DNA of 64,000 nucleotides, taken from positions 11,149 to 75,148 of IMG/VR virus record IMGVR_UViG_3300044266_000349, one strand, 5' to 3'. How positions within the stretch are numbered: position 1 is the stretch's first letter; every line of letters begins with the position of its first letter. The notes under the pieces are model-generated. The model was not told where the DNA came from. It made no database searches and saw nothing but the letters and a program-made list of their open reading frames with translations. A program made the position numbers and the translations under genes. The DNA comes from a virus (lineage: Duplodnaviria; Caudoviricetes). Below are positions 26,002 through 57,533 of this stretch, one piece after another.

Positions 26002-28844
26002 TAAACAGTAATCAAAAAACATCAATACTCGTACCAACACAGTTGCCCGAATTTATTCGGGACAATCCGGACTATTCCAATTTTGTTTTATTCATCAAGG
26101 CTTACTACGAATGGATGGAACAGAACGGGCAAGTAACCGAACGTTCTAAAAATTTATTAAATTATAAAGACGTTGATAAAACAACAAGTGAGTTCATTGA
26201 TTATTTTACAAACGATTTCTTACCATATTTTCCAAAAGATGTATTGGTAGATGAAGCCAAGGCGGTAAAATTTGCAAGAGAATTGTATCAGTCAAAGGGT
26301 ACACCAGGTTCATATGAATTCCTGTTCCGTGTATTGTATGACTCATCATTCGATATATTTTATACAAGAGATGCCGTACTCAGAGCCTCCGATGGTGTCT
26401 GGTATGTTGCCAAAAGTTTGAAATTAAATTCAAGCGATTTAAATTTTCTAAAGACTAAGAATCTGAGAATCTTAGGTGAGACAACAAAGTCTATTGCTAC
26501 AATAGAAAATACGGTTGTTGCAAAAAATAAAATAGAAGTTTTTATTTCTAACATCGAACGTTTGTTTCAATCTGGAGAATTTGTACGTGTAGTTGACAAT
26601 AAGAATCAAGACGTTCTTTTTAATGGATCACCTCTTCGCGCAAAAATTGTAGGTCAAATAAGTCAAATACTTATCAATCCCAAGAACAGAGGATTGGCCT
26701 ATAAAATTGGCGACCCGGTTATAGTTTATGATGGCTTATCATCAAACACCGGCATAGGTGCAACAGCTCAAGTCAGTGAAGTTACCACAGGATCAGTTAA
26801 AAAAGTTACCGTCTTAACTGGTGGCCAAGGTTTTTCTGCATCAAATGTTTACCCATCTAATACACAATTAGAATTTACGGTCTTCGACGAAGACGCACAG
26901 AAACCTATAGCTATTGTTGGTTCTCTTGACCCGAATGGTGCGAACTCTAGAACCATAAACTTCATAGCGTCAGATACAATTGCATTGAAAAAAGATATAC
27001 CAATCGGTAACAATCATTATTATTTTGCTGCCAATCTAACTGCAAACATTTCATGCTCTTTGGCCAATGCGCTTTCGTTTTTAACACTTACAACTTATCC
27101 ATTATCTTCTATTGTAGTTACAAATGGTGGTGGCGGTATCACTACCAAACCATCATTAGAAGCTAGATCGCTGTACGGTACCGATACACAACAGGGTTCT
27201 AATCTGAAGAACCTTGGCATATTAGGTAAAATTAAAGTTGTCAATGGTGGTTTGGGATATCAAAACAATGATCCGATAGTGTTTACAGGCGGTTCAGGAT
27301 ATGGTGCATCAGCCAGAGTTAGTTCTGTCAATGCGGCCGGTGGAATTATTAATGTATCATTTTATGCAACGACCAGCAAGTATCCTATTGGTGGTATGGG
27401 TTATAAACCAGAATGGATGCCATCTGTAACTGTAAATTCAGCAAATGCGAATGCCACGGGCGCCATATTAACCACAACAGGAATTCTTGGCGACGGCGCA
27501 ACATTCGACATGGTTCTTGACAGAGCAGGTTCAATTACAAAAATTAATGTGATTGATGGCGGTGAAGATTACATTGCAACACCAAATGTTTCTATAAGAG
27601 TACAGGATATCTTAGTAACAAACGTATCCATATCACTGTTACCACAAAAAGGTGAGTTTGTTTATCAAGGTAACAACGCAAACAACACCATCTACCAGTC
27701 GTATGCAGATTCTATGGAATTATTGGTGCCTGATGTGAATCCAAGCAAATCACTATACAAGATGCGAGTATATAATTATAACGCAGCACCAAATCCAAAT
27801 TACACAATCAAAATACAAAATAAGAATATCAATTTTGTGATGGCAAATACAGATTGGAAGCCATCGGGTTATACAAAATCGGTATATGATAAGACTGGTG
27901 TCAGAACATATGGTGACGGAACAGCAAAGGCAAATGCATCGTTCTTAAATGGTCTTGTACTAAGCCAAGGCCAATATTTGAATTCTCAGGGTAGATTGTC
28001 TTCTTTCTCCAAATTGGAAAGTGAAGATTATAACAACTACACCTATGAGATCACCGTACAAAAAGAAATTTCAAAATACAGAGATGTATTATTGAACTTG
28101 TTGCATCCAACTGGCATGAAATTAATTGGCCGTTACGGCAACGTTGTGGACCAAGAGTTCAATCTCCATGCAGAAAGTGCTCTGAAAACAGGACGAAATC
28201 TATATTCGTATACCGGAACAGCAGCATCTGCAATACAAATTTATGCAGATTGGACACACAAGAGTAATAATATACTCAATTTTGTGAACTTGAGTGGCGC
28301 AAACCTGGCAAATATTATTTTTGCAAACAGTACACTTTCATTGAACACTCTAACTGGTCCAGACATTCAAACAGAAATACAGTCGATTGATGCCGCAAAC
28401 AACCAAGTAAAAATAACCAGTAACGTATGGTTAACGTTTATGAATGTTGCATATGTCAGTGCAAATGCTGGTTCGAATGTCATAAATATTAAAACTGTTA
28501 CCAACTCATATGATTTAGTAAACAATGGAAATTATAGTAATACAATGTATCCTATGATGGATATTGTATTCTCAGGTGACAATATCAAGATAGGTAACAC
28601 AGTCAAACAAGTAGATTATGTCGATATTGCACACAATAAAATTTATGTTGCAAATACTTTTGCTGCAAATATAACAAACTCATTAATGTCGGTGAACAGA
28701 ATATTGACTGCTGGCGGACAGTTGCCGCGACAAGATGAAATTATCATTTATGGACCGGTGGGTACACAATACACACCTCAATTGACGACAGAGGCAGGAG
28801 ACTTAATCACAACTGAAGACGGAAGAATTCTAATATTGGGGTAA
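25998..28844 (+). CDS. gp7: baseplate wedge initiator-like protein
   Basis: QLPEFIR, FIKAYYEWME, YxSKGTxxSY.FLFR, HPTGM; follows gp6 with ATGA overlap. Confidence 0.75.
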   Translation: MINSNQKTSILVPTQLPEFIRDNPDYSNFVLFIKAYYEWMEQNGQVTERSKNLLNYKDVDKTTSEFIDYFTNDFLPYFPKDVLVDEAKAVKFARELYQSKGTPGSYEFLFRVLYDSSFDIFYTRDAVLRASDGVWYVAKSLKLNSSDLNFLKTKNLRILGETTKSIATIENTVVAKNKIEVFISNIERLFQSGEFVRVVDNKNQDVLFNGSPLRAKIVGQISQILINPKNRGLAYKIGDPVIVYDGLSSNTGIGATAQVSEVTTGSVKKVTVLTGGQGFSASNVYPSNTQLEFTVFDEDAQKPIAIVGSLDPNGANSRTINFIASDTIALKKDIPIGNNHYYFAANLTANISCSLANALSFLTLTTYPLSSIVVTNGGGGITTKPSLEARSLYGTDTQQGSNLKNLGILGKIKVVNGGLGYQNNDPIVFTGGSGYGASARVSSVNAAGGIINVSFYATTSKYPIGGMGYKPEWMPSVTVNSANANATGAILTTTGILGDGATFDMVLDRAGSITKINVIDGGEDYIATPNVSIRVQDILVTNVSISLLPQKGEFVYQGNNANNTIYQSYADSMELLVPDVNPSKSLYKMRVYNYNAAPNPNYTIKIQNKNINFVMANTDWKPSGYTKSVYDKTGVRTYGDGTAKANASFLNGLVLSQGQYLNSQGRLSSFSKLESEDYNNYTYEITVQKEISKYRDVLLNLLHPTGMKLIGRYGNVVDQEFNLHAESALKTGRNLYSYTGTAASAIQIYADWTHKSNNILNFVNLSGANLANIIFANSTLSLNTLTGPDIQTEIQSIDAANNQVKITSNVWLTFMNVAYVSANAGSNVINIKTVTNSYDLVNNGNYSNTMYPMMDIVFSGDNIKIGNTVKQVDYVDIAHNKIYVANTFAANITNSLMSVNRILTAGGQLPRQDEIIIYGPVGTQYTPQLTTEAGDLITTEDGRILILG

Positions 28845-37870: not shown

Positions 37871-38101
37871 ATGGCTATCGTACAGATTCCAGGAACAAAT
37901 TTATATAGAGACACTAACTCCATGGCTCTTATTAATAAGGATAAAACTGGTCAAGAAGATTATAAAATGAAGAGAAGATTGTTGGAGACTCAGGCACAAG
38001 AAATAAATAAAGTAAAATCGGAAATAAATGACATCAAACAAGACTTATCCGAAATAAAGTCTTTGATGTTAAGACTACTTGACAAGGGTTCAAATGGCTA
38101 A
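37871..38101 (+). CDS. small coiled-coil protein typical after the DUF4815 gene
   Basis: LYRDxNSxAxINxD, C-terminal heptads. Confidence 0.7.
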   Translation: MAIVQIPGTNLYRDTNSMALINKDKTGQEDYKMKRRLLETQAQEINKVKSEINDIKQDLSEIKSLMLRLLDKGSNG

Positions 38102-41100
38102 TACAGTACCAATTCTTAGTTACGCCAACACGTTTAGTGATTGGTTCGTTACAACCAATGCGTTGTCACAAGAGAATAATATCCTTGGTAAAGGCGATTA
38201 CACCAAGGATTCTGGTACTTTGTACCTAAGTGAGACAACACAAAACGCATTACAAGCCAATGGTAATATTGTCGTACAAAAACAACTTCTTGTTCAAGGC
38301 CTAGGATCTTCTGCAACCATTCAAAATAACCTGACCGTTGGTGGTCAAGTATATTTTACAAATAATACATTAAGTCTTGTTGCTTCCGGTCAAGCTAACG
38401 TTTCTGGTCCAATTTATGCCCTGTCACCAAATACAGGTTTAATTGTTGCAAACAACGCAACAATTTCTGGCAATCTTGTAACTGTTGGTTCTGGTGTATT
38501 TTCAAGTAATGTTTCTGTTGGCACATGGATGAATGTTGGTGCAAACTCCGTATTTACGGGACCTATGGTTGCGTCACAATCAGTAACTACACCAAATCTA
38601 ATCGCATCAGCAATCAGTTCCACTGGCACTGCAACAGTCGATAAAGTTCAAGCCAATACAAGTATAACTTCTGGAACAATCAACGCAAATACAGTTCTTA
38701 ATGCAGCAAATGTGGTCGCTGGAACCATAAGTTCTGGTGGTACCGCAACAGTCAATCGTTTAGAAGCTAATTCTAGTTTGCAAACAGCAGTTCTGGTTTC
38801 AAATACGAGTGTACAAACATCCATATTTGTTGCAAACAATAGTGTTACCACAAATACCGTTACTGCGAACACATTAATTAGTGCACCAAACGTAATTGCT
38901 GGTGCCATTAGTTCTTCTGGTACAGCCACGGTTAATAATCTACAAGCTAATACCTCGGTATCGACCGGCACAATTACAGCCAATACACTCATCAGTTCTC
39001 CAAATGTTATTGCTACTGCAATTAGTGGCTCTAGTGTGGATTATAGTTTAATTACAGCCAACACTAGAGTTTCTACAGCCAATTTAATTGCTGGTGCCAT
39101 CAGTTCTTCTGGTACAGCCACGGTTAATAATTTACAATCTAATACCTCGGTATTGACTGCCACAATTACCGCAAACACTTTAATTACTTCTCCAAATGTT
39201 ATTGCTACTACAATTAGTGGCTCTAGTGTAGATTATAGTTTAATTACAGCCAACACATTAGTCACCACAACCAATTTAATTGCTGGTGCCATCAGTTCTT
39301 CTGGTACAGCCACGGTTAATAGAGTGCAAGCAAATTCAAGTATTCAAACCGCAGTTTTGGTTTCTAATACAAGTATACAAACAGCTGCACTAATTGCAAA
39401 CAATAGCGTTTTGGCCAATACACTAACAGCCAATACACTAATCAGTGCGCCAAATATTACTACAACAGTAATCAGTTCTAGTGGTGCGGCCACATTCAAC
39501 AGTGTGCAGTCGAACACATCCGTACTCACAGGCACACTTCAATCTAATACATCCGTATTGACGGGTGTTTTAACTGCCAATACATCCGTACTCACAGGTA
39601 CATTACAGTCAAATACTTCTGTATTGACTGGTACTGTAACCGCCAACACATTAGTCACCACAGCCAACTTAATTGCTGGTGCCATTAGTTCTTCTGGTAC
39701 AGTTACAGTTAATAATCTACAAGCTAATACATCCATATCATCACCTAATATTCTTGGCACATCAGCCAGTTGGTCTGGATCATTATTTGCAAATACGATT
39801 CAAGCCAATAGTACCATTAATGTAATTAGTTCTGTACAAAAAGATAATGCGGTAACAGTTAATATTACCACAGCTAATACATCTAATGCTACTGGTCAAG
39901 TTTCTAGAGCAATATTGAATGTGTCAGGTCCATTAACAAATAGTAATGTATCATATGCTACAGTAACTATTCTAGCCAATCAAGCTTCATTAATTGTTTC
40001 GAATGGTACCAATACATTAACATTAACGCCAACATTAGCTTCATCAGATAAGTTACAAGCTAACACCAGTGTATTAACTGGTACGTTGACCGCAAATACA
40101 CTAGTCACCGCACCAAATCTGGTGGCTACTGCCATCAGTTCTAGTGGTACAGCCACAGTCGATAAGTTACAAGCTAACACTAGTGTATTAACGGGCACGA
40201 TTCAATCCAACACCAGCATATTAACTGGTACAATAACTGCCAATACTCTGATCACTTCGCCCAATTTCACCGGCACATCAGCTAGTTGGTCTGGATCATT
40301 ATTTGCAAACACTGTACAATCAAACAGTACCATTAACGTAATTAGTTCTACACAAAAAGATAATGCCGTAACAATTAATATCACTTCATCGAACGTTGCC
40401 TATCCGGGGTTAACTGGTGGAGTATCGAATACTGGTTTGGTTTCCAGATCAGTTCTAAACATAACAGGCCCATTAACTAATGCTAACGTATCATATTCTA
40501 CAGTAACAGTGCAAGCTAATATAGCTTCTGTTATCGTGTCGAACGGTACCAACACATTAACATTAACACCAACAAATGTACTCACTGATACAGTTCAATC
40601 GAATACCAGTGTATTAACTGGTACAATAACTGCTAATACGAGTGTATTAACTGGAACAATTCAGTCAAATACCAGTGTATTAACTGGTACAATAACTGCT
40701 AATACATTAGTAACGACACCCAATTTAATTGCTGGTGTTATTAGTTCTAGTGGTACAGCTACAGTTGATAAGTTACAAGCTAACACCAGTGTATTAACTG
40801 GTACAATAACTGCAAATACATTTAATGCGAATAGTACAATCAATGTTATTGGTTCGACACAAGCCTATAATACTGTAACAATTAATATCACAACCGCAAA
40901 CACTCAATTCCCTAGCCCTGTTGGCGGTGGTAATACAGGTTTAGTTTCCAGAGCATTCTTAAATCTAATTGGACCATTAACTGGCGGCAATACTTCTATT
41001 GCAACATTTACGGTACAGGCAAATCAGGCATCAATCGTTGTTTCAAATACAACAAGCACATTAACATTAACACCAACAGCAATGACTGGAAGTGCTGTTG

Positions 41101-41759
41101 ATGCAACACTGAAATCCCTGGTTACATCGGGTTCAGTACAAGTTGGTGGCAATTTCATTCTTACTGGTACTACAATTTATGCAACCAACACATTCACACT
41201 GAATGCTGGTGCGGCAGCCAATTCGAATAACTTCTTTAGTGTTGATCGCACAAATTCACCCGGCGCATCTAATGCATCTATCCGTTGGAATGAAACAGAT
41301 AAATATTGGGACATTAAAGATGTGACTTTGGGTGGTTCAAATTCATATTATAGAATTATTACCGACCAAAGTGGTACACCAGGAACTGCTGTTACATTAA
41401 AAGGTTATATTCAGGCGAATGGTTTTGTTTCAACACAAAATACAGTTACGACAGTTGGTGGTGCAAATACAAATGTTTATTTGAATTTGGCTCTGTATGA
41501 TAATTTTACAATTTCACCAACATCAAATATGACTTTTATTTTGCAAAACGTAGGTTCAAAAATTGGTAGTTCTGGAGTTATCACAATTAAACAAGACGCT
41601 AGTGGTGGTAGATTCTTTACGAAGGCCACCGAAATGAAGACCCCTTTGGGTGGTGCAACTATCACACAAATTACTACAGGTAATAGCTTGTCGATGTTAT
41701 CTTATTTTGTATACGATACTAATACCGTTCTAATAAATTATATTGGTAACTTTGCATGA
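38094..41759 (+). CDS. tail-fibre-like protein with extensive (A/S)NT-S-V beta repeats
   Basis: ATG 38094; late motif AATAAATA at 38002; repetitive Thr/Asn/Ser/Val shaft. Confidence 0.75.
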   Translation: MANTVPILSYANTFSDWFVTTNALSQENNILGKGDYTKDSGTLYLSETTQNALQANGNIVVQKQLLVQGLGSSATIQNNLTVGGQVYFTNNTLSLVASGQANVSGPIYALSPNTGLIVANNATISGNLVTVGSGVFSSNVSVGTWMNVGANSVFTGPMVASQSVTTPNLIASAISSTGTATVDKVQANTSITSGTINANTVLNAANVVAGTISSGGTATVNRLEANSSLQTAVLVSNTSVQTSIFVANNSVTTNTVTANTLISAPNVIAGAISSSGTATVNNLQANTSVSTGTITANTLISSPNVIATAISGSSVDYSLITANTRVSTANLIAGAISSSGTATVNNLQSNTSVLTATITANTLITSPNVIATTISGSSVDYSLITANTLVTTTNLIAGAISSSGTATVNRVQANSSIQTAVLVSNTSIQTAALIANNSVLANTLTANTLISAPNITTTVISSSGAATFNSVQSNTSVLTGTLQSNTSVLTGVLTANTSVLTGTLQSNTSVLTGTVTANTLVTTANLIAGAISSSGTVTVNNLQANTSISSPNILGTSASWSGSLFANTIQANSTINVISSVQKDNAVTVNITTANTSNATGQVSRAILNVSGPLTNSNVSYATVTILANQASLIVSNGTNTLTLTPTLASSDKLQANTSVLTGTLTANTLVTAPNLVATAISSSGTATVDKLQANTSVLTGTIQSNTSILTGTITANTLITSPNFTGTSASWSGSLFANTVQSNSTINVISSTQKDNAVTINITSSNVAYPGLTGGVSNTGLVSRSVLNITGPLTNANVSYSTVTVQANIASVIVSNGTNTLTLTPTNVLTDTVQSNTSVLTGTITANTSVLTGTIQSNTSVLTGTITANTLVTTPNLIAGVISSSGTATVDKLQANTSVLTGTITANTFNANSTINVIGSTQAYNTVTINITTANTQFPSPVGGGNTGLVSRAFLNLIGPLTGGNTSIATFTVQANQASIVVSNTTSTLTLTPTAMTGSAVDATLKSLVTSGSVQVGGNFILTGTTIYATNTFTLNAGAAANSNNFFSVDRTNSPGASNASIRWNETDKYWDIKDVTLGGSNSYYRIITDQSGTPGTAVTLKGYIQANGFVSTQNTVTTVGGANTNVYLNLALYDNFTISPTSNMTFILQNVGSKIGSSGVITIKQDASGGRFFTKATEMKTPLGGATITQITTGNSLSMLSYFVYDTNTVLINYIGNFA
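38898..39330 (+). repeat. tandem ~192-bp (64-codon) repeats inside fibre gene
   Basis: GCTGGTGCCAT... unit starts at 38898, 39090 and 39282. Confidence 0.8.
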
Positions 41760-44365
41760 TCAACGCTGGGTTTTTTGGTGTCTTTGATTGGAGTACAGAT
41801 GTAACCACATCGCGGACAACCACTACTGTATGGAATACAAGTAGAAGTACCACAACCACTTGGAACACTAGTCAATCCACAACCACAACCTGGTCAACTA
41901 GCCAATCTACCAGTCAAAGTACAACTCCATCTGGAAGCACTAGTCAGTCCACAACTCAATCTACAAATACTACTTGGAACACTAGTCAATCCACAACCAC
42001 GACCTGGTCAACTAGTCAATCTACTAGCCAAAGCACTACTACAACCTGGTCAACTAGCCAATCTACTAGTCAAAGTACAACAACTAGTTGGAATACAAGC
42101 CAAAGCACTACTACAACGTGGAGTACAAGTCTGTCCACTAGTATGAGTACATTAACAACTTGGACCACAAGTCAATCAACAACAAAATCTACAATTACAT
42201 CGTGGAATACTAGTAGAAGTACAAGTCAAAGTACAATTACTTCCTGGGTCACCAGCCAAAGCACCACCACAACTTGGACCACTAGCCAATCTACTAGTCA
42301 AAGCACAACCACAACCTGGTCAACTAGTCAATCCACCAGCCAAAGTACAACAACTAGTTGGAATACAAGCCAAAGCACCACCACAACTTGGACCACTAGC
42401 CAATCTACTAGTCAAAGCACAACCACAACCTGGTCAACTAGTCAATCCACCAGCCAAAGTACAACAACTAGTTGGAATACAAGCCAAAGCACTACTACAA
42501 CCTGGTCAACTAGTCAATCCACCAGCCAAAGTACAACAACTAGTTGGAATACAAGCCAAAGTACAAACCAGAACACCACAACTTCATGGAATACTAGTAG
42601 ATCAACGACAGTTTCAACATCAAGTAGTTGGAGTACAACTCAAAGTACGACTACAAATTGGAATACAAGCCAATCTACTAACCAAAGTACCACAACTAGT
42701 TGGAATACCAGCCGTTCTACATCAACAACAGCGACAACAAGTAGAAGTACCAGCCAAAGTACCACCACAACTTGGACCACAAGTTGGAATACAACAAGAA
42801 GTACCACAACTAGTTGGAATACCAGCCGTTCTACATCAACAACAGCGACAACAAGTAGAAGTACCAGCCAAAGTACCACCACAACTTGGACCACAAGTTG
42901 GAATACAACTCGTGCAACGACTACTAGTTGGAACACAAGTCAATCCACAACTACAAGTTGGAATACTAGTGTATCGACCAATAGAAGTACAACCACAAAC
43001 TGGACGACCAGTTGGAATACTAGCACACTTATTGTATTAATTACAGAAAGAATAACACAATTTGGTATTGATGTATATTTAACTTCTTACGAAACTTCAT
43101 ATAGTTCGGTTTTTTCAACTAATGTGTCTACTAGTCAGTCCACATCTACAACCTGGACTACCACCTGGTCTACAAGCCAAAGCACTACTACAACTTGGGC
43201 TACCAGTCAGTCCACAACCACAACCTGGTCTACAAGCCAATCCACCACACAAAGCACCACTACAACTTGGACAACTTCTTGGTCGACCTCATCAACCTGG
43301 ACTACCACCTGGTCTACAAGCCAAAGCACCACTACAACCTGGTCTACAAGCCAATCCACCAGTCAATCTACAACCACAACTTGGACAACTTCTTGGTCGA
43401 CCTCATCAACCTGGACTACCACCTGGTCTACAAGCCAAAGCACCACTACTACTTGGACCACCAGTTGGAATACAACAAGAAGTACAGTTACAACTTGGAA
43501 CACTTCAACAACAGCCAATACAACTTGGACTACAACCTGGTCCACCAGCCAAAGCACCACTACTACTTGGACGACCACTTGGTCCACCAGCCAAAGCACC
43601 ACTACAACCTGGACCACAAGTTGGAACACCAGCCAAAGTACCACTACAACCTGGTCCACCAGCCAAAGTACAACCACAACCTGGACCACCAGTTGGGATA
43701 CAACAAAAAGTACAGTTACAACCTGGACTACCAGTTGGAACACAAGTCAAAGCACCACCACAACTTGGACCACTAGCCAAAGCACCATTACAACCTGGAC
43801 CACCAGTTGGAATACAAGTAAAAGCACAACAACTCTTTGGATAACAGGTTGGTCTACAAGTCAAAGTACAACCACAACTTGGACTACCAATCAGTCTACC
43901 GTAACTTCGTGGTCAACAACTTGGGCTACAACACAAGTTACTACAACCACCTGGACCACAAGTTGGAGTACAAATTCTTCAACAACAACTGTATGGATAA
44001 CAACTTGGTCCACCAGCCAAAGTACCACTACAACCTGGTCCACCAGCCAAAGTACCACCACAACTTGGACCACTAGTTGGAATACAACTCAGAGTACCAC
44101 TACAACTTGGACGACTAGCTGGAATACAAGTCAGAGCACAACAACAGTATGGAGTACCAGTCGCTCTACAACTACCACATGGACAACCACATGGACAACT
44201 AGTTTTTCAACATTAACCACATGGACAACTAATTGGTCAACAAGTGCATCAACAACAACAACGTGGTCAACCAGCATTACTACAACTACAACTTGGAATA
44301 CAAGTACAATTACAATCACTTCTTGGACAACACAAAGGATTACAAACTACTACCAAGGATATTAA
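41756..44365 (+). CDS. 869-aa Thr/Ser/Trp repeat protein (mucin-like or beta-solenoid)
   Basis: Open 2.6 kb; ATGA-coupled to fibre gene; units such as STTTTWSTSQ and STTTTWTTSWNTSQ. Confidence 0.8.
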   Translation: MINAGFFGVFDWSTDVTTSRTTTTVWNTSRSTTTTWNTSQSTTTTWSTSQSTSQSTTPSGSTSQSTTQSTNTTWNTSQSTTTTWSTSQSTSQSTTTTWSTSQSTSQSTTTSWNTSQSTTTTWSTSLSTSMSTLTTWTTSQSTTKSTITSWNTSRSTSQSTITSWVTSQSTTTTWTTSQSTSQSTTTTWSTSQSTSQSTTTSWNTSQSTTTTWTTSQSTSQSTTTTWSTSQSTSQSTTTSWNTSQSTTTTWSTSQSTSQSTTTSWNTSQSTNQNTTTSWNTSRSTTVSTSSSWSTTQSTTTNWNTSQSTNQSTTTSWNTSRSTSTTATTSRSTSQSTTTTWTTSWNTTRSTTTSWNTSRSTSTTATTSRSTSQSTTTTWTTSWNTTRATTTSWNTSQSTTTSWNTSVSTNRSTTTNWTTSWNTSTLIVLITERITQFGIDVYLTSYETSYSSVFSTNVSTSQSTSTTWTTTWSTSQSTTTTWATSQSTTTTWSTSQSTTQSTTTTWTTSWSTSSTWTTTWSTSQSTTTTWSTSQSTSQSTTTTWTTSWSTSSTWTTTWSTSQSTTTTWTTSWNTTRSTVTTWNTSTTANTTWTTTWSTSQSTTTTWTTTWSTSQSTTTTWTTSWNTSQSTTTTWSTSQSTTTTWTTSWDTTKSTVTTWTTSWNTSQSTTTTWTTSQSTITTWTTSWNTSKSTTTLWITGWSTSQSTTTTWTTNQSTVTSWSTTWATTQVTTTTWTTSWSTNSSTTTVWITTWSTSQSTTTTWSTSQSTTTTWTTSWNTTQSTTTTWTTSWNTSQSTTTVWSTSRSTTTTWTTTWTTSFSTLTTWTTNWSTSASTTTTWSTSITTTTTWNTSTITITSWTTQRITNYYQGY
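42687..42909 (+). repeat. near-exact 114-bp tandem duplication
   Basis: GTACCACAACTAGTTGGAATACCAGCCGTTCTAC... at 42687 and 42801. Confidence 0.8.
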
Positions 44366-44384
44366 AATATACCATTTTTTTATC

Positions 44385-44413
44385 TTGACATATTGAATAA
44401 AAAATGTTATTTT
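44385..44413 (+). promoter_or_regulatory. sigma70-type promoter inside the late region
   Basis: TTGACA 44385-44390, 17 nt, TG-n-TATTTT extended -10. Confidence 0.5.
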
Positions 44414-44445: not shown

Positions 44446-45318
44446 ATGGATATGTTTAATAAAAAATCAATGAATGAACGTATTGGTAATATTGAAAAGA
44501 GTTCTTCATTAAACCACCTCAAGGAAGTAGAAAAATATTTCCTTTCATCGGTAAAAAAATATAAAATTGAAGCAGCTTATGATGTGATTGCAAATGAATT
44601 GCCGTATTTTAAAACTTTTAATTATACGGAATGGGCCCACTCTTTTATTATGCACCCACTGCAACAAGAACTTCGTGTTAGACAAATGGTAGATGCATAT
44701 AATGACGATGCAACCCAAAAAGTGGATTACATATCTTATTTTAAAGATAGGATTATGAATGGCCAATCCAACAAATATACACACATTATTAAAGATGAAA
44801 AAAATAAACCAAGAGAACATTTGGTTGTTTTAGTTGGTTCCAATAAACTTAAAGAAAGAATTTGCCTGAATAAGTTGAGATGGATCCGAGATCAATATGA
44901 GGATGATGTATGGTTTAAACCACATCCTTTGACAACACATGCATTGGTAGGAGAACTAAAGGATCTTTTGGGTGAAAATAGAATACTGCACCGTGATGCC
45001 GACATGTATGAGTTTATGTTGGAATCCAAAATTGTACACAACTCACACTTATCCGAATCTTTGGTGTATGCAATTGCTTTAGATAAAGAAGTTGATCCAA
45101 TTGATGTGTATCAGAAGGCTGAACAAGGTTCGTTTTATCATATCAATAAATTTTTATTCACGGAACAAAATCCAAAGGAATGGGTAAATAGAACACTCAA
45201 TAGCCCAAAATGCGGAATCATTAATCCAGAGGTGGATACCGAGTGGAAAAAGAAAATTGATGATTATCTTGAATACATAAATACCGTTAGAAACAGTTAC
45301 AAAAACAGATACGTTTAA
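44446..45318 (+). CDS. putative glycosyltransferase, KpsS/KpsC (capsule beta-Kdo transferase)-like C-terminal motifs
   Basis: VWFKPHP, then NSHLSESLVYAIALDKEV...FY, resembling the KxHP...NSTxGxEAL..GKxV...FY signature. Confidence 0.55.
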   Translation: MDMFNKKSMNERIGNIEKSSSLNHLKEVEKYFLSSVKKYKIEAAYDVIANELPYFKTFNYTEWAHSFIMHPLQQELRVRQMVDAYNDDATQKVDYISYFKDRIMNGQSNKYTHIIKDEKNKPREHLVVLVGSNKLKERICLNKLRWIRDQYEDDVWFKPHPLTTHALVGELKDLLGENRILHRDADMYEFMLESKIVHNSHLSESLVYAIALDKEVDPIDVYQKAEQGSFYHINKFLFTEQNPKEWVNRTLNSPKCGIINPEVDTEWKKKIDDYLEYINTVRNSYKNRYV

Positions 45319-50473: not shown

Positions 50474-51049
50474 ATGAAAGGTGAATGGTGTTTTTTCGAG
50501 AGAGGTTTTTCGGCCTCAGAGTGTGATAAAATCTTAGAAGACGGTTTAAAATTACCAGCTAAAGATGCCGAACTTGGCGTTGCTGGTATGTCTGAACACT
50601 CCGATACCAGTTATCGTCGCAGTAAAATAAGATTTATACAATCAAACGATTCTAACTTTGAATGGTTGTTTGATAAAATCTGGAAAATGGGAATAGTGGC
50701 CAACAGAGAGTGGTTCAATTTCCATGTTACCAATTTATCGTTCATTCAGTTGGCAGAATATGATGAGTCGTATCAAGGTGAATATAAACAACATCATGAT
50801 GTGTTCTACATGAACAACGATAGCTACCACAGAAAACTAACTTGTGTAATACAGTTGTCGGATCCAACCAAGTATGAAGGTGGTGATTTCGAAATGTATA
50901 ATCTCACCCAGTATCCAGACAAACAAAAGATTCGTGAACGTGGTACTGCAATTTTTATTCCTTCATTTACTGTACATGCAGCCTTGCCGGTGACCAAAGG
51001 AACACGTTATAGTATTGCAGTTTGGTTTGAAGGGAATAAATGGCAATGA
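50474..51049 (+). CDS. 2OG-Fe(II) oxygenase, prolyl-4-hydroxylase-like
   Basis: HxD (HHD), RKLT, YEGGDF, distal H (VHA), RYS. Confidence 0.88.
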   Translation: MKGEWCFFERGFSASECDKILEDGLKLPAKDAELGVAGMSEHSDTSYRRSKIRFIQSNDSNFEWLFDKIWKMGIVANREWFNFHVTNLSFIQLAEYDESYQGEYKQHHDVFYMNNDSYHRKLTCVIQLSDPTKYEGGDFEMYNLTQYPDKQKIRERGTAIFIPSFTVHAALPVTKGTRYSIAVWFEGNKWQ

Positions 51050-52725
51050 GATACCATATTTTAGGCCTGCCTCACACCGTAACATCTAAAGAATATAATG
51101 CTTGTGCATATACACAAAAGGTAGTTAAGTTTGGTAAGATGATGACCAATTTGGGTCATGAAGTCATTCACTATGGGCATGAAGATTCAGACTTACAATG
51201 CACTGAGCACGTTACTGTCACGACAAATAAAGATTTAGAAATTGCATACGGATCATATGATTGGCGCAAAAACTTTTTTAAGTTTGACACCAACGACCAT
51301 GCGTACCAGACGTTCTATAAAAATGCCATTCGTGAGGTAGGTAAACGCAAACAAAAGAATGATTTTATTCTTCCATTTTGGGGTGCAGGTGTTCGACCAG
51401 TGTGTGATGCACATCCAGATATAATCACGGTAGAACCAGGTATTGGTTATGCTGGTGGGCATTGGGCTCGATTTAAAATCTTTGAGTCGTATGCCATCTA
51501 TCATGCATATTATGGATTGAAGTCTGTTGGTAATTGTATACAAGACTGGTATGATGTTGTGATACCAAACTATTTTGATCCAGATGATTTCACATTTAAC
51601 GAAAAGAAAGAAGATTATTTTCTTTTCTTAGGTCGTGTATATGATGGCAAAGGCGTCAATATTGCTGTGCAAGCTACTGAAGCCATTGGTGCAAAACTTA
51701 TTATTGCTGGCCAAAACTCATTGAAACAAATGGGTTATGCAGAGACACCATCACATGTCACCGAAATTGGTTATGCAGATGTTGAAACTCGCAAGAAACT
51801 TATGGCAAATGCCAAAGGTGCATTCGTGGCATCATTGTATACCGAACCTTTTGGTGGCGTACAAATGGAAATGTTATTCTCTGGTACTCCTACCATTACC
51901 ACAGATTGGGGAAGTTTTACTGAGAACAATATCCATGGTGTAACAGGTTATCGTTGTCGTACATTCGAACAGTTCACTTGGGCCGCACGGAACATCGACA
52001 GGATTGATCCTAGAAATTGCAGACAGTGGGCAGAGAACTTCACACTCGATAAAGTAGGAAAAATGTATGAGGAATATTTCCAATCTGTATTGAATGTGTA
52101 TGGTGGCAATGGTTGGTATGAAAAGAATGATGCTCGTGGTGATTTAAACTGGTTGCACAAACAATATCCGGAATATCCGGAACGTTTCAATCATGATGTA
52201 ATGGATGCAGAAGAAAGGCCAATGGCGGATAGATTGGCAACTTGGATTAAAAAAGAAATAAATCCAAAAACAGTATTAGATATTGGTTGTGGCCCAGGAA
52301 CATATGTACGTTCACTCAGAAATTTAGGTATTGATGCAACAGGTATTGATATTGATGAACGTGTGATTGGTCAAGAACATCTTGTGTTTAAAAGTTTGTT
52401 TGATATCAAAGAAGAAAAAGCTGATGTAACAATTTGTTTAGAAGTGGCAGAACATATCGACACTCTTTTTGAAAAACAAGTTGTTGAAAAAGTTGCATCA
52501 ACAGTTGGTCATACTTTGATATGGACAGCTGCAGCAATTGGTCAAGGTGGCATAGGTCATATCAATTGTAAAGACAAAGAAGAGTGGTCTAAACTGATTG
52601 AATCGACTGGTTTAGTACGCAACCACGAAAAAGAAAAAAAATTAATTCAATATATTCGTCAAGGATACCACATGGGATGGTTTCCACAAAATTTGTTATA
52701 TTTCGAAAGAATAAATAAGACATAA
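51046..52725 (+). CDS. GT4 glycosyltransferase fused to class I SAM methyltransferase
   Basis: FLGRxxxxKG and EPFGGVQME (ExxxxxxxE); C-terminal VLDIGCGPG and CLEVAEH. Confidence 0.88.
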   Translation: MRYHILGLPHTVTSKEYNACAYTQKVVKFGKMMTNLGHEVIHYGHEDSDLQCTEHVTVTTNKDLEIAYGSYDWRKNFFKFDTNDHAYQTFYKNAIREVGKRKQKNDFILPFWGAGVRPVCDAHPDIITVEPGIGYAGGHWARFKIFESYAIYHAYYGLKSVGNCIQDWYDVVIPNYFDPDDFTFNEKKEDYFLFLGRVYDGKGVNIAVQATEAIGAKLIIAGQNSLKQMGYAETPSHVTEIGYADVETRKKLMANAKGAFVASLYTEPFGGVQMEMLFSGTPTITTDWGSFTENNIHGVTGYRCRTFEQFTWAARNIDRIDPRNCRQWAENFTLDKVGKMYEEYFQSVLNVYGGNGWYEKNDARGDLNWLHKQYPEYPERFNHDVMDAEERPMADRLATWIKKEINPKTVLDIGCGPGTYVRSLRNLGIDATGIDIDERVIGQEHLVFKSLFDIKEEKADVTICLEVAEHIDTLFEKQVVEKVASTVGHTLIWTAAAIGQGGIGHINCKDKEEWSKLIESTGLVRNHEKEKKLIQYIRQGYHMGWFPQNLLYFERINKT

Positions 52726-52751
52726 CAATCATAATAACAAGGGGAAAGTGA

Positions 52752-55115
<2,364 letters not shown>

Positions 55116-55116
55116 A

Positions 55117-55473
55117 ATGGCAGCACCAAATATTGTAAACGTTAGCAGTATCATAGCGCGAACATCTGCAAATTCTTTGTTTACAAATACATCTAACATA
55201 ATTACAAATAGTGCAGGTAGTAACACTGTCGCTAAAGTGAATCATATAATGGTATCAAATTATAATTCATCAACCGTTACATGTAATGTTAGCATAAACA
55301 AAAGCGGTATGAACTATTTAATTGCTGGTTCAATTTCTGTTCCCGCAACTTCTACTTTGGTCGTTGTAGGAAAAGACACCGCAATATATCTTGAAGAAGG
55401 TGATGTTATTCAAGCCAACACCAGTTCAAATTCGAGTTCACACATAATTAGTTCTTACGAAATAATCTCATGA
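55117..55473 (+). CDS. conserved small virion protein
   Basis: MAAPNIVNV start 1 nt after collagen stop; IYLEEGD motif. Confidence 0.7.
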   Translation: MAAPNIVNVSSIIARTSANSLFTNTSNIITNSAGSNTVAKVNHIMVSNYNSSTVTCNVSINKSGMNYLIAGSISVPATSTLVVVGKDTAIYLEEGDVIQANTSSNSSSHIISSYEIIS

Positions 55474-56390
55474 GATATAGAAGCAATCGTGGCCTAATTG
55501 GTAATCAAAATTCAGTTTCTCCAACTGATGCTGGAGGAATTAATTCATTGGTGGACCAACAATTATATAGCTCTTCTGCGAATTGGCCAAAGATACCAAC
55601 AACAATCGTGATTGATTATCTTATAGTTGCCGGTGGAGGCGGCACAGATGGTTGGACTTGTGGTGGTGGCGGAGCCGGAGGTTTACTACAATCAAACAAT
55701 ATTACAATTTCCACTAGTTCCACATATACAGTTACCGTAGGATCAGGTGGTTCACCTGGTTTCAGCGGATCAAATTCCGTTTTCAATTCAACTACAACGA
55801 TTGGTGGTGGCCGTGGTGGCACCGGTAACGATTATCCATTTAGACCACCTACCGGTGGTTCTGGTGGTGGAGGCAGTTATGGTGGCGGATCATATTCTGG
55901 ATTACCAGGTGGATACGGAACACCGGGACAAGGTAATGATGGAGGAAGTGGATCAAATATTAGTAGTGCATGGGACTCCGGCGGCGGCGGTGGTGCTGGT
56001 GCCGCAGGCGGAAACGGAAATTCATCCCGAGTTTCAGGTAACGGAGGCGTAGGTTTACAATCTTCGATTACCGGTACACCAACATATTATGCTGGCGGAG
56101 GCGGCGGAGGTGCTTATAGTGGTGCTGGAGGTGCTGGCACAGGAGGATTAGGAGGTGGAGGCAACGGGGTGATAGGCACAGGAACCGGCGGATCAGGCAC
56201 AGTAAATACGGGTGGCGGTGGTGGAGGCCGCGGTGACGGCGGTGTTGGTGGTGCTGGCGGATCAGGTGTTGTTATAATTCGTTATGCCAACACACGTGCA
56301 AACGCCGCAACAACTGGTTCACCAACATGGTCTGATGTTGGTGGTTATAAGATATATAAATTTACCTCGTCGGGTTCAATCACATTCTAA
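55470..56390 (+). CDS. glycine-rich domain virion protein
   Basis: YLIVAGGG...GGGGAGG...YAGGGGG...GGSGVVIIRY. Confidence 0.8.
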   Translation: MRYRSNRGLIGNQNSVSPTDAGGINSLVDQQLYSSSANWPKIPTTIVIDYLIVAGGGGTDGWTCGGGGAGGLLQSNNITISTSSTYTVTVGSGGSPGFSGSNSVFNSTTTIGGGRGGTGNDYPFRPPTGGSGGGGSYGGGSYSGLPGGYGTPGQGNDGGSGSNISSAWDSGGGGGAGAAGGNGNSSRVSGNGGVGLQSSITGTPTYYAGGGGGGAYSGAGGAGTGGLGGGGNGVIGTGTGGSGTVNTGGGGGGRGDGGVGGAGGSGVVIIRYANTRANAATTGSPTWSDVGGYKIYKFTSSGSITF

Positions 56391-57514
56391 TTAAAAATTT
56401 TGGAAAAATAAATGACAACCAAAATAGATGCAAATAATATTACATTAACATCATTTACATCCGCAAACTTGAATGTTTCGGCTGTATATGCAAACAATTA
56501 TTATTACGCAAACGGAACTCCATTTAGTGGCGGTGGAGGAAGTTCTACACCAAGTGGAGTGAGTGATCAATTAAATACAAGCACAGGATACTTTAGTGTG
56601 CCTATAGGAAATACTGCACAAAGACCGGCCGGTTCAGCCAATGGTGCATTGAGATATAATACGACCACATATGGGTTGGAAACTTATTTGAACGGAAGTT
56701 GGATTACAATATCTTCAAATGCACCATTTACAAATACCCCTAATGTAGAATATCTTGTGGTCGCCGGCGGCGCCGGTGGTGGTTATAATTATGCTGGCGG
56801 CGGTGGTGCTGGAGGTCTATTAACTTCCACATCGAGTGTAGTATCAGGCGTAACTTATACTATAACAGTAGGTGCTGGAGGAACAGGAGCCACCTCGGGT
56901 AGCGGATCACCACCTAGTGGTAATGGAGCAAATGGTTCCAACTCAATAATTAGTGGATCCGGATTCACAACAATAACATCCATAGGCGGAGGTTATGGTG
57001 CGGGATTCTCCGTAAACGGCGCATCAGGAGGATCTGGCGGCGGCGGTGGTGGAAATAATGGAGGTTCATTTCCCGGTGGAGCAGGAACATCAAGTCAAGG
57101 ATACGCAGGCGGTTCAGCTGCTAATAATGGACCTGCTGGTGGTGGAGGTGGTGCAGGAGGAGCAGGTCAAAACGGAGCATCATCTGGTGGAAATGGAGGC
57201 ATAGGAGTTTATTCTTCAATTTCTGGTGCCAACACAGGATATGCCGGTGGAGGCGGCGGAGGCGGAATGACTGGAGGATCAACATCATCTGGTGGTGGCG
57301 CTGGCGGCAACAATTTCGGAAATGGAACTGCGGGATCCACAAATACTGGAGGAGGCGGTGGCGGAGGCGGCGGCAACAATGGCCAAGGCGCATCGGGTGG
57401 ATCTGGTGTTGTTATAGTTCGTTATGCCAATACATATGCAAATGCAACTAGCACAACTGGTTCACCAACATGGTCTGATGTTGGTGGTTATAAGATATAT
57501 AAATTTACCTCGTC
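56310..57514 (+). repeat. 62-bp exact direct repeat at the 3' ends of both glycine-rich genes (56310-56371, 57453-57514)
   Basis: ACAACTGGTTCACCAACATGG...TTTACCTCGTC identical in both. Confidence 0.85.
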
Positions 57515-57533
57515 AGGTTCAATTACATTCTAA
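56412..57533 (+). CDS. glycine-rich domain virion protein (paralogue)
   Basis: PxGxTAQRP...GALRYN N-terminal motif plus the same Gly-rich domain. Confidence 0.8.
   Translation: MTTKIDANNITLTSFTSANLNVSAVYANNYYYANGTPFSGGGGSSTPSGVSDQLNTSTGYFSVPIGNTAQRPAGSANGALRYNTTTYGLETYLNGSWITISSNAPFTNTPNVEYLVVAGGAGGGYNYAGGGGAGGLLTSTSSVVSGVTYTITVGAGGTGATSGSGSPPSGNGANGSNSIISGSGFTTITSIGGGYGAGFSVNGASGGSGGGGGGNNGGSFPGGAGTSSQGYAGGSAANNGPAGGGGGAGGAGQNGASSGGNGGIGVYSSISGANTGYAGGGGGGGMTGGSTSSGGGAGGNNFGNGTAGSTNTGGGGGGGGGNNGQGASGGSGVVIVRYANTYANATSTTGSPTWSDVGGYKIYKFTSSGSITF

What the first reader, a model, noticed from the sequence alone, without database searches (positions are those of the whole stretch)
41756..44365. 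869-aa Thr/Ser/Trp periodic protein coupled to a tail fibre
Almost the whole protein is T/S with Trp at regular intervals (10- and 14-residue units). Two repeat halves flank a short unique segment (LIVLITERITQFGIDVYL...). There is no signal peptide, and ATGA coupling to a fibre gene points to a virion location. Two possibilities: a mucin-like scaffold for dense O-glycosylation (a glycosyltransferase-like gene follows), or a Trp-cored beta-solenoid with flat Thr ladders as in ice-binding proteins. I recognise no phage family with this composition.
Basis: partly seen in the sequence, partly recalled or inferred. Interest (0 to 1): 0.8.

Follow-up and report, generated by a model that had tools for sequence, protein, structure and literature searches.

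The report
Self-pairing fold-back phage fibre protein
This phage gene encodes a threonine/serine/tryptophan repeat protein whose two halves match each other in reverse order, so the chain most likely folds back on itself into a very long thin fibre attached to a tail fibre. I found no solved structure or paper describing this design.

Summary
In detail: ORF 41756-44365 (+) encodes 869 aa with T 44%, S 25% and W 9.8%, and its ATG overlaps the stop of the upstream fibre gene.

The protein is neither mucin-like nor best read as a solenoid. It alternates strictly between two residue phases. Its single non-repeat segment lies at the exact midpoint. When residue i is set opposite residue 877-i, 72 of 77 Gln/Arg/Lys face a Trp and no Trp faces a Trp. 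Counting all aromatics against Q/R/K/H gives 74 pairs, against 30±5 after shuffling the repeat units (z 9.4) and 40 for the best parallel mapping.

In 50 complete relatives (171-1269 aa) the two arm lengths correlate with r = 0.99. The chain therefore almost certainly folds back and pairs with itself.

The gene belongs to a conserved three-gene cassette:
- a trimeric fibre ending in a ~120-aa adaptor domain;
- the hairpin protein;
- a 290-aa KxHP protein, present in 51 of 52 loci.

The cassette also occurs in cultured Caulobacter phages BL198 and Cr30.

AlphaFold2 gave no usable model, so the beta-ribbon, the virion location and any glycosylation are inferred.

This scan has already flagged mirror-coded fold-back fibres on other DNA. 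I found no paper, Pfam family or PDB entry for them. PHROGs matched one distant short form only, to an unnamed family.

The parts
38094..41759 (+). Upstream tail-fibre gene. The ORF is listed from TTG 38079, but the start is probably ATG 38094, by comparison with orthologs that begin MANTVPIL.
   Evidence: An N-terminal homolog in L017 ends in Peptidase_S74, the chaperone domain of trimeric fibres and spikes. The L020 counterpart is collagen-like (E 4e-92).
41397..41756 (+). Conserved ~120-aa C-terminal 'adaptor' domain of the upstream fibre, ending ...NYIGNFA. Proposed docking site for the hairpin protein.
   Evidence: Alignments A2 and A3 have 23-30 invariant columns. There are 93 relatives in IMG/VR; in 77 of the 80 loci kept the next gene is a Thr-rich aromatic-repeat ORF. 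The L017 fibre has a different C-terminus and no such gene follows it.
41756..44365 (+). The 869-aa Thr/Ser/Trp repeat protein (the finding).
41756..41791 (+). N-terminal aromatic motif, residues 1-12 (MINAGFFGVFDW). Family consensus: GF[FLI]xG[KI]KE[WF][ST]T. In the best register residues 1-7 have no partner.
41777..43069 (+). N-arm, residues 8-438. Super-repeat 14+14+10 = 38 aa.
43016..43156 (+). The only non-repeat segment, residues 421-467. It holds the proposed turn (F436-G-I|D-V-Y441, nt 43061-43078) at the chain midpoint.
   Evidence: Family motif: Y[IV][DE]xxY[FV]xxxY.
43070..44362 (+). C-arm, residues 439-869. Super-repeat 4+10+4+10+10 = 38 aa. Pairs in reverse order with the N-arm (i + j = 877).
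44327..44362 (+). C-terminal motif, residues 858-869 (...QRITNYYQGY). Family consensus RTT[SN]FY[AS] at the end. It lies opposite the N-terminal motif in the fold-back register.
44446..45318 (+). 290-aa conserved partner gene with an invariant KxHP motif. Function unknown: either a modifying enzyme (CMP-sugar-transferase-like at best) or an assembly factor.

Best explanation
The ORF encodes a structural fibre protein whose chain runs out, turns at its exact midpoint (around F436-G-I-D-V-Y441) and runs back. Residue i lies beside residue 877-i, giving a long, thin, two-stranded antiparallel beta ribbon.

One face carries Thr plus the rungs of a pairing code: a Trp in one arm opposite a Gln, Arg or Lys in the other. 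The other face is almost pure Ser/Asn/Thr. Both chain ends, each a conserved aromatic motif, lie together at the base. They probably dock on the conserved ~120-aa C-terminal adaptor domain of the trimeric tail fibre encoded just upstream, with which the gene is translationally coupled. The protein would then be a distal extension of that fibre, possibly three hairpins per fibre.

Phages change its length by adding or losing matched repeats in both arms; arms range from 45 to 628 residues in relatives. If fully extended, the arm here would reach about 0.14 micrometre.

The always-linked 290-aa KxHP protein either modifies the hydroxyl-rich surface or helps assembly.

Shown: composition, alternation, selection on the protein, the midpoint rule, the mirror complementarity, and the three-gene linkage. 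Inferred: beta structure, self-pairing, virion location, docking, oligomeric state, and any modification.
For: 1. Two-residue alternation. Ser is 6 in the Trp phase and 208 out of it; Gln 57/0, Asn 1/37, Arg 13/1, Lys 3/0. The same holds in orthologs: in L020 Phe is 110/0; in the L005 fragment Val is 112/0 and Ser 0/454; in L007 Glu is 7/52.

2. Midpoint rule. In 50 complete non-identical relatives (171-1269 aa), N-arm versus C-arm length gives r 0.990 and slope 0.99. In the 16 long forms (arms 221-628) the median difference is 3.5 residues. Here the arms are 423 and 425.

3. Mirror code in this protein. At i+j = 877, all 85 Trp are paired: 56 with Q, 13 with R, 3 with K and 0 with W. 72 of 77 Q/R/K face a Trp. 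Counting all aromatics against Q/R/K/H gives 74 pairs. Shuffling the C-arm repeat units gives 30.4±4.6 (maximum 46 in 300 shuffles; z 9.4). A reversed C-arm gives 39, and the best parallel mapping gives 40.

4. The same code in relatives. In 17 of 18 long orthologs 74-97% of Q/R/K/H face an aromatic residue (L020 was scored as Trp opposite Phe: 91 pairs, 82% of Phe). In those 17 the count is about twice the best parallel mapping (1.8-3 times). The exception is L007/L024, at 22 vs 18. The centre always lies 2.5-5.5 residues past the geometric midpoint in those 17.

5. Independent features also mirror. Density of hydrophobic substitutions correlates at r +0.55 in the mirror register versus +0.29 in parallel.

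6. No inverted DNA repeat lies in the ORF, so the mirror is not a DNA artefact.

7. Fibre context. The gene sits in the baseplate/fibre module of a T4-like phage related to pelagimyophages. The upstream gene family ends either in Peptidase_S74 or in the adaptor domain, and in L020 the adaptor follows a collagen triple helix. The hairpin-type ORF starts with a 4-nt or 1-nt overlap in 55 of 77 loci and never more than 44 nt downstream. In cultured Caulobacter phage BL198 the first cassette gene is the T7-type tail fibre.

8. A 290-aa homolog (33-78% identity) is present in 51 of 52 loci, usually 10-190 nt after the hairpin gene.
Against: No structure supports the model. AlphaFold2 gave pLDDT 29 for the whole protein and 38 for the 285-aa ortholog with a 17-row alignment. 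A low pLDDT would also fit disorder.

The register is derived from one pairing rule that I chose after seeing aromatic coincidences and an earlier scan note. Registers one super-repeat away still score 63 of 74.

Ortholog L007 obeys the code only weakly (22 pairs, 39% of Q/R/K/H). Its arms are 318 and 378 in the midpoint scan; one search skipped it because it lacks the C-terminal motif.

In more distant modular relatives with two Thr-rich arms, mirror and parallel mappings could not be separated, or parallel scored higher.

Virion location, docking on the adaptor and the trimeric state rest on gene order and on the partner's collagen and S74 domains. There is no proteomic evidence. Similarity of the BL198 and Cr30 fibre ends to the adaptor domain is weak (hhalign E 0.01 and 0.003, probability 4-10%).
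Confidence: 0.68

Rival explanations
1. Mucin-like, largely disordered virion scaffold for dense O-glycosylation by phage-encoded glycosyltransferases.
For: 69% Ser+Thr. Very low AlphaFold2 confidence. An enzyme-like protein with an invariant KxHP motif is linked in 51 of 52 loci, with weak hints of Kdo- or sialyl-transferase likeness (Atlas cluster carrying PF05159 at 0.93; PF07388 in 2 of 16 members at E 0.019). Bona fide glycosyltransferase domains lie nearby: GT1 at 51040-52725, and GT29-, GT8- and Anp1-like genes in related loci.
Against: 1 Pro and 85 Trp. Strict two-phase alternation. Arms of equal length across 50 relatives. Residue-level mirror complementarity. None of these has a reason to exist in a disordered glycan carrier. 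Orthologs with only 40% Ser+Thr keep the design. Glycosyltransferases beside fibres are generic in pelagimyophage host-recognition clusters (PMC7029224). Glycosylation of a folded ribbon is not excluded; only the disordered-scaffold reading is disfavoured.
Confidence: 0.07
2. Single-chain beta-solenoid with stacked Trp and flat Thr ladders, as in ice-binding or antifreeze proteins. The two halves might form two solenoids side by side.
For: Regular 10- and 14-residue units and a 38-residue super-repeat in both halves. TxT-type alternation. The low-confidence AF2 model shows 7-10-residue strands separated by ~4-residue turns at residues 500-760. Less biased 14-residue Trp repeats occur in proteins with lectin-type domains: P0013 carries Laminin_G_3 above its cut-off, and P0015 carries CBM_4_9 below its cut-off.
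Against: A solenoid needs a constant coil length, but the units mix 4, 10 and 14 residues, and the super-period is 38 here, 50/74/98 in L020 and about 34 in L007. It does not predict exact equality of the arms or one gap-free reverse-order register over about 430 pairs. AlphaFold2 usually models solenoids with confidence (my own knowledge) and did not here. No evidence bears on ice or polysaccharide binding.
Confidence: 0.12
3. Non-virion tail-fibre assembly chaperone, or a scaffold released after assembly. Fibre chaperone genes commonly sit just downstream of fibre genes.
For: Position directly after, and translationally coupled to, a fibre gene. T4 gp38 and lambda Tfa occupy the equivalent position (PMC9659904).
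Against: Length varies from 171 to 1269 aa among the complete relatives that carry the family's C-terminal motif, through repeat gain and loss. This is typical of fibre shafts and not of chaperones. Short forms carry a 65-93-aa central domain at the tip position, like a receptor-binding head. The same repeat type is fused to baseplate-wedge, Gly_rich_2 and lectin-like domains in other phage proteins.
Confidence: 0.06
4. Not a real gene: an open frame created by A/C-rich repetitive DNA.
For: Other frames of the repeat are also open for 120-240 codons. The DNA is strongly skewed.
Against: Synonymous variation among identical peptide units. 5 synonymous and 0 non-synonymous differences between two samples. 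Conserved N-terminal, central and C-terminal motifs and conserved start overlap across 65 distinct relatives.
Confidence: 0.01

Closest known systems
Needle domain of the phage T4 long-tail-fibre tip, gp37. [quoted passage not shown]
   Same: A distal fibre element in which each chain goes out to a tip and comes back, so the N- and C-side segments run antiparallel and have equal length. The tip sits mid-chain. The partner fibre is trimeric. A dedicated gene follows the fibre gene.
   Different: No sequence similarity (PDB search empty). No His at all, so no HxH iron sites. The arms are 431 residues here; by my recollection of the gp37 structure its needle arms are far shorter. It is a separate polypeptide rather than the end of the fibre protein. 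It is held in register by a Trp-versus-Gln/Arg/Lys code on a Thr/Ser background. The oligomeric state is unknown.
Mirror-coded fold-back (or two-gene) Thr-rich phage fibres flagged earlier by this scan on other genomes. These are AI notes, not publications.
   Same: Thr-rich arms that match in reverse order under an aromatic-versus-basic rule, matched insertions in both arms, and a T4-like fibre context.
   Different: Here the partner of Trp is mainly Gln. This report adds the conserved three-gene cassette (adaptor-domain fibre, hairpin, KxHP protein), the family-wide arm statistics, and carriers among cultured Caulobacter phages.
Tryptophan-zipper beta-hairpins: designed 12-16-residue peptides stabilised by cross-strand Trp-Trp pairs (recalled from memory: Cochran et al. 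2001).
   Same: A two-stranded antiparallel hairpin with regularly placed Trp on one face.
   Different: At the best register no Trp faces a Trp (0 of 85). The rungs are Trp-Gln, Trp-Arg and Trp-Lys. The length is about 30 times greater.
Beta-solenoid antifreeze and ice-binding proteins with TxT ladders (recalled from memory).
   Same: Thr-rich even-period repeats and probably flat hydroxyl-rich beta surfaces.
   Different: No constant coil length. The equal-arm and mirror-register constraints are unexplained by a solenoid. No Cys or other known core features. No functional evidence.
Mucin PTS domains.
   Same: About 70% Ser+Thr. Nearby sugar-handling genes.
   Different: 1 Pro, 10% Trp, strict alternation and mirror complementarity.

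Membership tests
T4 gp37-type fold-back needle | The chain runs out and back, so the N- and C-side segments are antiparallel and of equal length | tested here: met
   By sequence logic only: arms of 423 and 425 residues, r 0.99 in 50 relatives, and mirror code z 9.4. There is no structure.
T4 gp37-type fold-back needle | HxH motifs that bind iron along the axis | tested here: not met
   The protein has no His.
T4 gp37-type fold-back needle | Sequence similarity to gp37 or other solved fibre tips | tested here: not met
   phmmer against PDB gave no hit at E<=10. Pfam and PHROGs gave none.
T4 gp37-type fold-back needle | Homotrimer | not testable with these tools
   The partner fibre is trimeric by its collagen and S74 domains. 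The protein's own state is unknown.
Mucin-like PTS scaffold | Ser/Thr-rich | tested here: met
   69% S+T.
Mucin-like PTS scaffold | Pro-rich, aromatic-poor, and no fixed residue register (disordered) | tested here: not met
   1 Pro, 85 Trp, and Ser 6 versus 208 between the two phases.
Mucin-like PTS scaffold | Dense O-glycosylation | not testable with these tools
   Needs glycoproteomics.
Beta-solenoid ice-binding/antifreeze type | Tandem coils of constant length | tested here: not met
   Units of 4, 10 and 14 residues are mixed. The super-period is 38 here, 50/74/98 in L020 and about 34 in L007.
Beta-solenoid ice-binding/antifreeze type | TxT-type ladders on a flat face | tested here: inconclusive
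   Thr alternation is present in the sequence. The geometry is unknown.
Trp zipper | Cross-strand Trp-Trp pairs | tested here: not met
   0 Trp-Trp pairs at the best register. An alternative register with 28 Trp-Trp pairs breaks the Q/R/K pairing.
Mirror-coded fold-back fibre (class seen in this scan) | One gap-free reverse-order register with a complementarity rule, beating parallel and shuffled controls | tested here: met
   74 pairs, against 40 parallel, 39 with the C-arm reversed, and 30±5 shuffled.
Mirror-coded fold-back fibre (class seen in this scan) | Relatives gain or lose residues in both arms together | tested here: met
   Example pairs: L088 and L085 have arms 224/221 and 267/265; L030 and L046 have 311/305 and 374/367. 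Overall r is 0.99.
Capsule_synth (KpsS/KpsC) beta-Kdo transferases, for the 290-aa neighbour | Match to PF05159 or to solved KpsC or WbbB | tested here: not met
   No Pfam hit at E<=10. PF05159 finds nothing in the record. A 16-sequence profile finds no PDB relative. The only hint is an Atlas lead at 0.93 with 168 shared features.
Capsule_synth (KpsS/KpsC) beta-Kdo transferases, for the 290-aa neighbour | Conserved HP motif (recalled from memory as shared by Kdo- and sialyl-transferases) | tested here: inconclusive
   K158, H160 and P161 are invariant in 16 members down to 34% identity. PF07388 polysialyltransferase matches 2 of 16 members at E 0.019. A two-residue motif does not establish membership.

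The most novel reading that the evidence does not exclude
The protein is a single-chain, two-stranded beta ribbon roughly 0.1-0.15 micrometre long. A residue pairing code holds it in register: Trp opposite Gln/Arg/Lys, Thr opposite Thr, and Ser opposite Ser on the other face. It would be a protein counterpart of a nucleic-acid hairpin. Phages would tune its length by adding matched repeats to both arms, and the always-linked KxHP enzyme would decorate its Ser-lined face with a sugar.
Probability: 0.3. Interest if true: 0.9.

Novelty: new variant of a known kind. Interest (0 to 1): 0.8.

Why it matters
If the fold-back ribbon is real, it is a new way to build a phage fibre. A simple, readable pairing rule would set the register over hundreds of residues, and length would be set by repeat number: arms of 45 to 628 residues occur in relatives.

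The design is widespread. There are 93 adaptor-domain relatives in IMG/VR and 65 distinct hairpin proteins among the 80 loci kept. It lies in the host-recognition region of relatives of phages that infect abundant aquatic bacteria (SAR11 and OM43).

It comes as a portable three-gene cassette, which gives a testable unit for host-range biology. Cultured carriers exist (Caulobacter phages BL198 and Cr30), so the model can be tested directly.

It also marks a blind spot of current structure predictors. The constant pairing with a conserved KxHP protein points to an unknown fibre maturation or modification step.

Tried and rejected
- Structure prediction. AlphaFold2 on the whole protein without an alignment gave pLDDT 29. 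On the 285-aa ortholog with a 17-row alignment it gave pLDDT 38. Neither model was usable, so no fold search was run.
- Complex prediction with three copies of the 285-aa ortholog returned 'no answer' (score 0.00). It counts neither for nor against oligomerisation.
- Searches that found nothing:
  - megablast and tblastn of the region and protein against cultured phages;
  - tblastn of the adaptor domain;
  - The search for related loci with the protein itself;
  - a word search with residues 1-45;
  - PDB sequence searches with the protein and with two less biased relatives.
- Aromatic-on-aromatic coincidence could not separate mirror from parallel in the window itself (29-30 vs 31 hits). The order of its super-repeats (52, 38, 38, 52, 38) is palindromic. 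The complementary rule, aromatic versus Q/R/K/H, resolved this.
- The Trp-Trp zipper register was considered and dropped.
- The mirror test on distant modular relatives with two Thr-rich arms was ambiguous or favoured parallel.
- KpsS/KpsC membership of the 290-aa protein was not supported by HMMs.
- The sigma-70-like site at 44385-44413 is one of 22 promoter-like sites where 24±5 are expected by chance. The T4 late motif TATAAATA occurs once in the window, and there is no ATAAATA within 80 nt upstream of the ORF start.
- The metagenome scan added only one new locus.

Full report
**Observation**

The window is part of a 75-kb IMG/VR virus record. It carries the baseplate and fibre genes of a T4-like myovirus (PHROG hits). 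The closest cultured relatives are Pelagibacter phages HTVC008M and Mosig and Methylophilales phage Melnitz (gp6 about 41% identical).

ORF 41756-44365 (+) is open for 869 codons. It has T 44%, S 25%, W 9.8%, Q 6.8% and N 4.5%, with one Pro and no His or Cys. The 85 Trp are spaced 10, 4 or 14 residues apart. The only odd spacing (47) spans the single non-repeat segment, residues 421-467. The ATG overlaps the upstream stop codon.

The frame is under selection for its protein:
- Identical peptide units are always encoded by different DNA, including AGY/TCN serine switches.
- Third codon positions vary about twice as much as positions 1 and 2.
- Two environmental copies of the 285-aa ortholog differ by five synonymous and no non-synonymous codons.
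- A 225-nt perfect internal duplication shows that repeat turnover is ongoing.

The protein alternates strictly between two residue phases. Counting back from each Trp, the Trp phase holds all Q (57/0), nearly all R and K (16/1) and most T. The other phase holds nearly all S (208/6) and N (37/1).

Orthologs keep the two phases with other residues. In L020 Phe is 110/0. In the L005 fragment Val is 112/0 and Ser 0/454. In L007 Glu is 7/52. This is the signature of extended beta strands with two different faces, not of a disordered mucin.

**Relatives and gene context**

Pfam, PHROGs and PDB sequence searches give nothing for the protein. An exhaustive HMMER search of 1.84 billion representatives gives only 54 hits. 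About 25 of them share the Thr/Ser-plus-aromatic 10/4/14 pattern. In these the repeat is fused to baseplate-wedge, Gly_rich_2, beta-propeller or lectin-like domains of phage proteins.

Searching with the neighbouring genes was more productive. The downstream 290-aa gene led to syntenic orthologs of 285 aa (L003), 712 aa (L007) and at least 1229 aa (L005).

All of them follow a gene whose last ~120 residues are conserved (ending ...NYIGNFA). In L020 that domain follows a collagen triple helix. A fibre homolog in L017 ends instead in a Peptidase_S74 chaperone domain and has no hairpin gene after it. So the partner is a trimeric tail fibre, and the conserved end behaves as an adaptor for the next gene's product.

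A scan with an alignment of seven adaptor domains found 93 relatives in IMG/VR, of which 80 loci were kept. In 77 of these the next ORF is a Thr-rich aromatic-repeat protein of 171-1424 aa. Its N-terminal motif (GF..G.KE[WF][ST]T) and C-terminal motif (RTT[SN]FY) are conserved. It starts with a 4-nt overlap (17 loci), a 1-nt overlap (38 loci) or within 44 nt. Of 65 distinct proteins, 10 are Trp-type like this one and 55 are Phe/Tyr-type.

A homolog of the 290-aa protein (33-78% identity) is present in 51 of 52 loci with a complete hairpin gene and at least 3 kb of downstream sequence. It usually lies 10-190 nt after the hairpin stop.

The same three-gene order occurs in two cultured Caulobacter phages:
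- BL198: T7-type tail fibre gp045, then a 217-aa Thr-rich aromatic protein, then gp047.
- Cr30: genes of 316, 116 and 322 aa.

Similarity of their fibre ends to the adaptor domain is only weak.

**Fold-back evidence**

In four complete orthologs of 285, 712, 869 and 1269 aa, the one non-repeat segment lies at the midpoint. The arms are 139/130, 318/378, 424/429 and 631/622.

Across 50 complete non-identical relatives, N-arm and C-arm lengths correlate with r 0.990 and slope 0.99. In the 16 long forms the median difference is 3.5 residues over arms of 221-628. Close relatives differ by equal amounts in both arms: 224/221 versus 267/265, and 311/305 versus 374/367. Short forms have a 65-93-aa Gly/Trp/Tyr-rich domain in place of the ~20-aa turn.

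Aromatic positions of the N-arm recur at mirrored positions of the C-arm (L020 92 of 109, L007 24 of 50). This is far above controls with permuted spacings and above parallel mapping. In the window itself that test could not separate mirror from parallel, because the order of its super-repeats is palindromic.

It is decisive.
- With residue i opposite residue 877-i, all 85 Trp are paired: 56 with Q, 13 with R, 3 with K and none with W. 72 of 77 Q/R/K face a Trp. The remaining pairs are mainly T-T (143), S-T (72), S-S (49) and N-S (26).
- Aromatic-versus-Q/R/K/H pairs number 74. The best parallel mapping gives 40, a reversed C-arm gives 39, and shuffled C-arm repeat units give 30.4±4.6 (maximum 46; z 9.4).
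- In 17 of 18 long orthologs the rule places 74-97% of Q/R/K/H opposite an aromatic residue (L020 was scored as Trp opposite Phe: 91 pairs). In those 17 the count is about twice the best parallel mapping, and the centre lies 2.5-5.5 residues past the geometric midpoint. L007 obeys it only weakly (22 pairs versus 18).
- Hydrophobic substitutions also cluster at mirrored positions (r 0.55 versus 0.29).
- The ORF has no inverted DNA repeat. An inverted repeat could not in any case encode a mirrored peptide. The mirror must therefore come from selection on contacts between i and 877-i, which is the index relation of an antiparallel two-stranded pairing.

In this register the turn is G437-I438|D439-V440, flanked by F436 and Y441. 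Residues 1-7 overhang, and the aromatic N- and C-terminal motifs face each other.

**Most likely mechanism (inferred)**

The chain folds back into a two-stranded beta ribbon. One face carries Thr and the Trp-Gln/Arg/Lys rungs. The other is a Ser/Asn/Thr surface. The paired termini form a base that docks on the trimeric adaptor domain of the upstream fibre. The mid-chain turn, or the tip domain of short forms, is the distal end.

If extended, 431 pairs would span about 0.14 micrometre. Whether one or three hairpins sit on each fibre is unknown.

The closest described structure is the gp37 needle of T4: a six-stranded antiparallel needle of three out-and-back chains with a head at the end (PMC9659904), with His-bound iron along the axis (PMC6957217). 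This protein has no His, shows no sequence similarity to gp37, is a separate polypeptide, and by my recollection of the gp37 structure has far longer arms.

**The 290-aa partner**

It has at least 195 close metagenomic homologs with no Pfam domain. An alignment of 16 members down to 34% identity keeps 22 invariant residues, including K158, H160, P161, D46, E204 and D220. That pattern looks more like an enzyme than a chaperone.

The HMM evidence for a glycosyltransferase is weak:
- No PF05159 match.
- No PDB relative with the family profile.
- PF07388 polysialyltransferase in 2 of 16 members at E 0.019.
- An Atlas lead to a Capsule_synth-bearing cluster.

Glycosyltransferases beside tail fibres are a general feature of the pelagimyophage host-recognition cluster (PMC7029224), and this window has such genes too. 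I therefore rate modification of the Ser/Thr surface as possible (about 0.3) and not shown.

**Limits**

No usable structure prediction was obtained. Virion location is inferred from context only. The exact register could be off by a super-repeat: 63 versus 74 pairs.

The scan has flagged mirror-coded fold-back or two-gene Thr-rich fibres on other genomes. I reached the midpoint and mirror results before reading those notes. They prompted only the aromatic-versus-basic test. Literature searches found no description of such a protein.

Noticed in passing
window 50474-55115: A 2OG-Fe(II) oxygenase (PF13640, E 6e-17) overlaps a fusion of a GT1-family glycosyltransferase and a methyltransferase. 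A 786-aa collagen-repeat protein follows directly. This fits a fibre-modification cassette, as another first-stage note proposed.
   Followed up: partly
window 55470-56390 and 56412-57533: Two adjacent proteins carry the Gly_rich_2 domain (PF21722, E about 2e-18). The same domain sits between two Thr/Ser/Trp arms in database protein P0002.
   Followed up: no
window 42685-42909: A 225-nt stretch forms two 100% identical copies of a 114-nt unit inside the ORF, so one repeat duplication is very recent.
   Followed up: no
L017:6255-10208: A fibre with the same N-terminus as the window's upstream fibre ends in a Peptidase_S74 chaperone domain and lacks the hairpin/290-aa cassette. Fibre tips are therefore swapped as modules.
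   Followed up: partly
L054, L041, L089 and about 30 other loci (short forms, 171-363 aa): Short family members have arms of 45-186 residues (most 45-110) and a 31-93-aa (mostly 65-93) Gly/Trp/Tyr-rich central domain where long forms have a ~20-aa turn. This domain is a candidate receptor-binding tip. Only one member hits a PHROG (phrog_30374, unknown function).
   Followed up: partly
proteins P0013, P0014, P0015, P0020, P0022, P0026: Less biased 14-residue Trp repeats (of the type ISKSxTLKWN, or HVTTTWxSSY) occur in proteins with Laminin_G_3 (P0013, above cut-off), CBM_4_9 (P0015, below cut-off) or tail-collar-like (P0014) domains. They show that the Trp phase is the hydrophobic one and that a Lys or Gln sits six residues before each Trp.
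   Followed up: partly
proteins P0004, P0005: Baseplate-wedge proteins (phrog_17744, the family of window ORF 25998-28844) carry C-terminal Thr-rich Phe/Tyr repeats of the same alternating kind.
   Followed up: no
L103 (Vibrio phage KVP40, 132125-132886): The central part of the 290-aa family (residues 93-266) matches a KVP40 hypothetical protein that lies among non-structural genes next to queuosine-pathway genes. The domain is therefore not confined to fibre cassettes.
   Followed up: no
window 1-64000: ARAGORN finds no tRNA and no tmRNA in the window. Another first-stage note proposes a permuted tmRNA at 7930-8243. I did not examine that region further.
   Followed up: no
window 38079-38101: The upstream fibre ORF is listed from TTG 38079. 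Orthologs begin at the equivalent of ATG 38094, which overlaps the end of the 76-aa ORF 37871-38101.
   Followed up: partly
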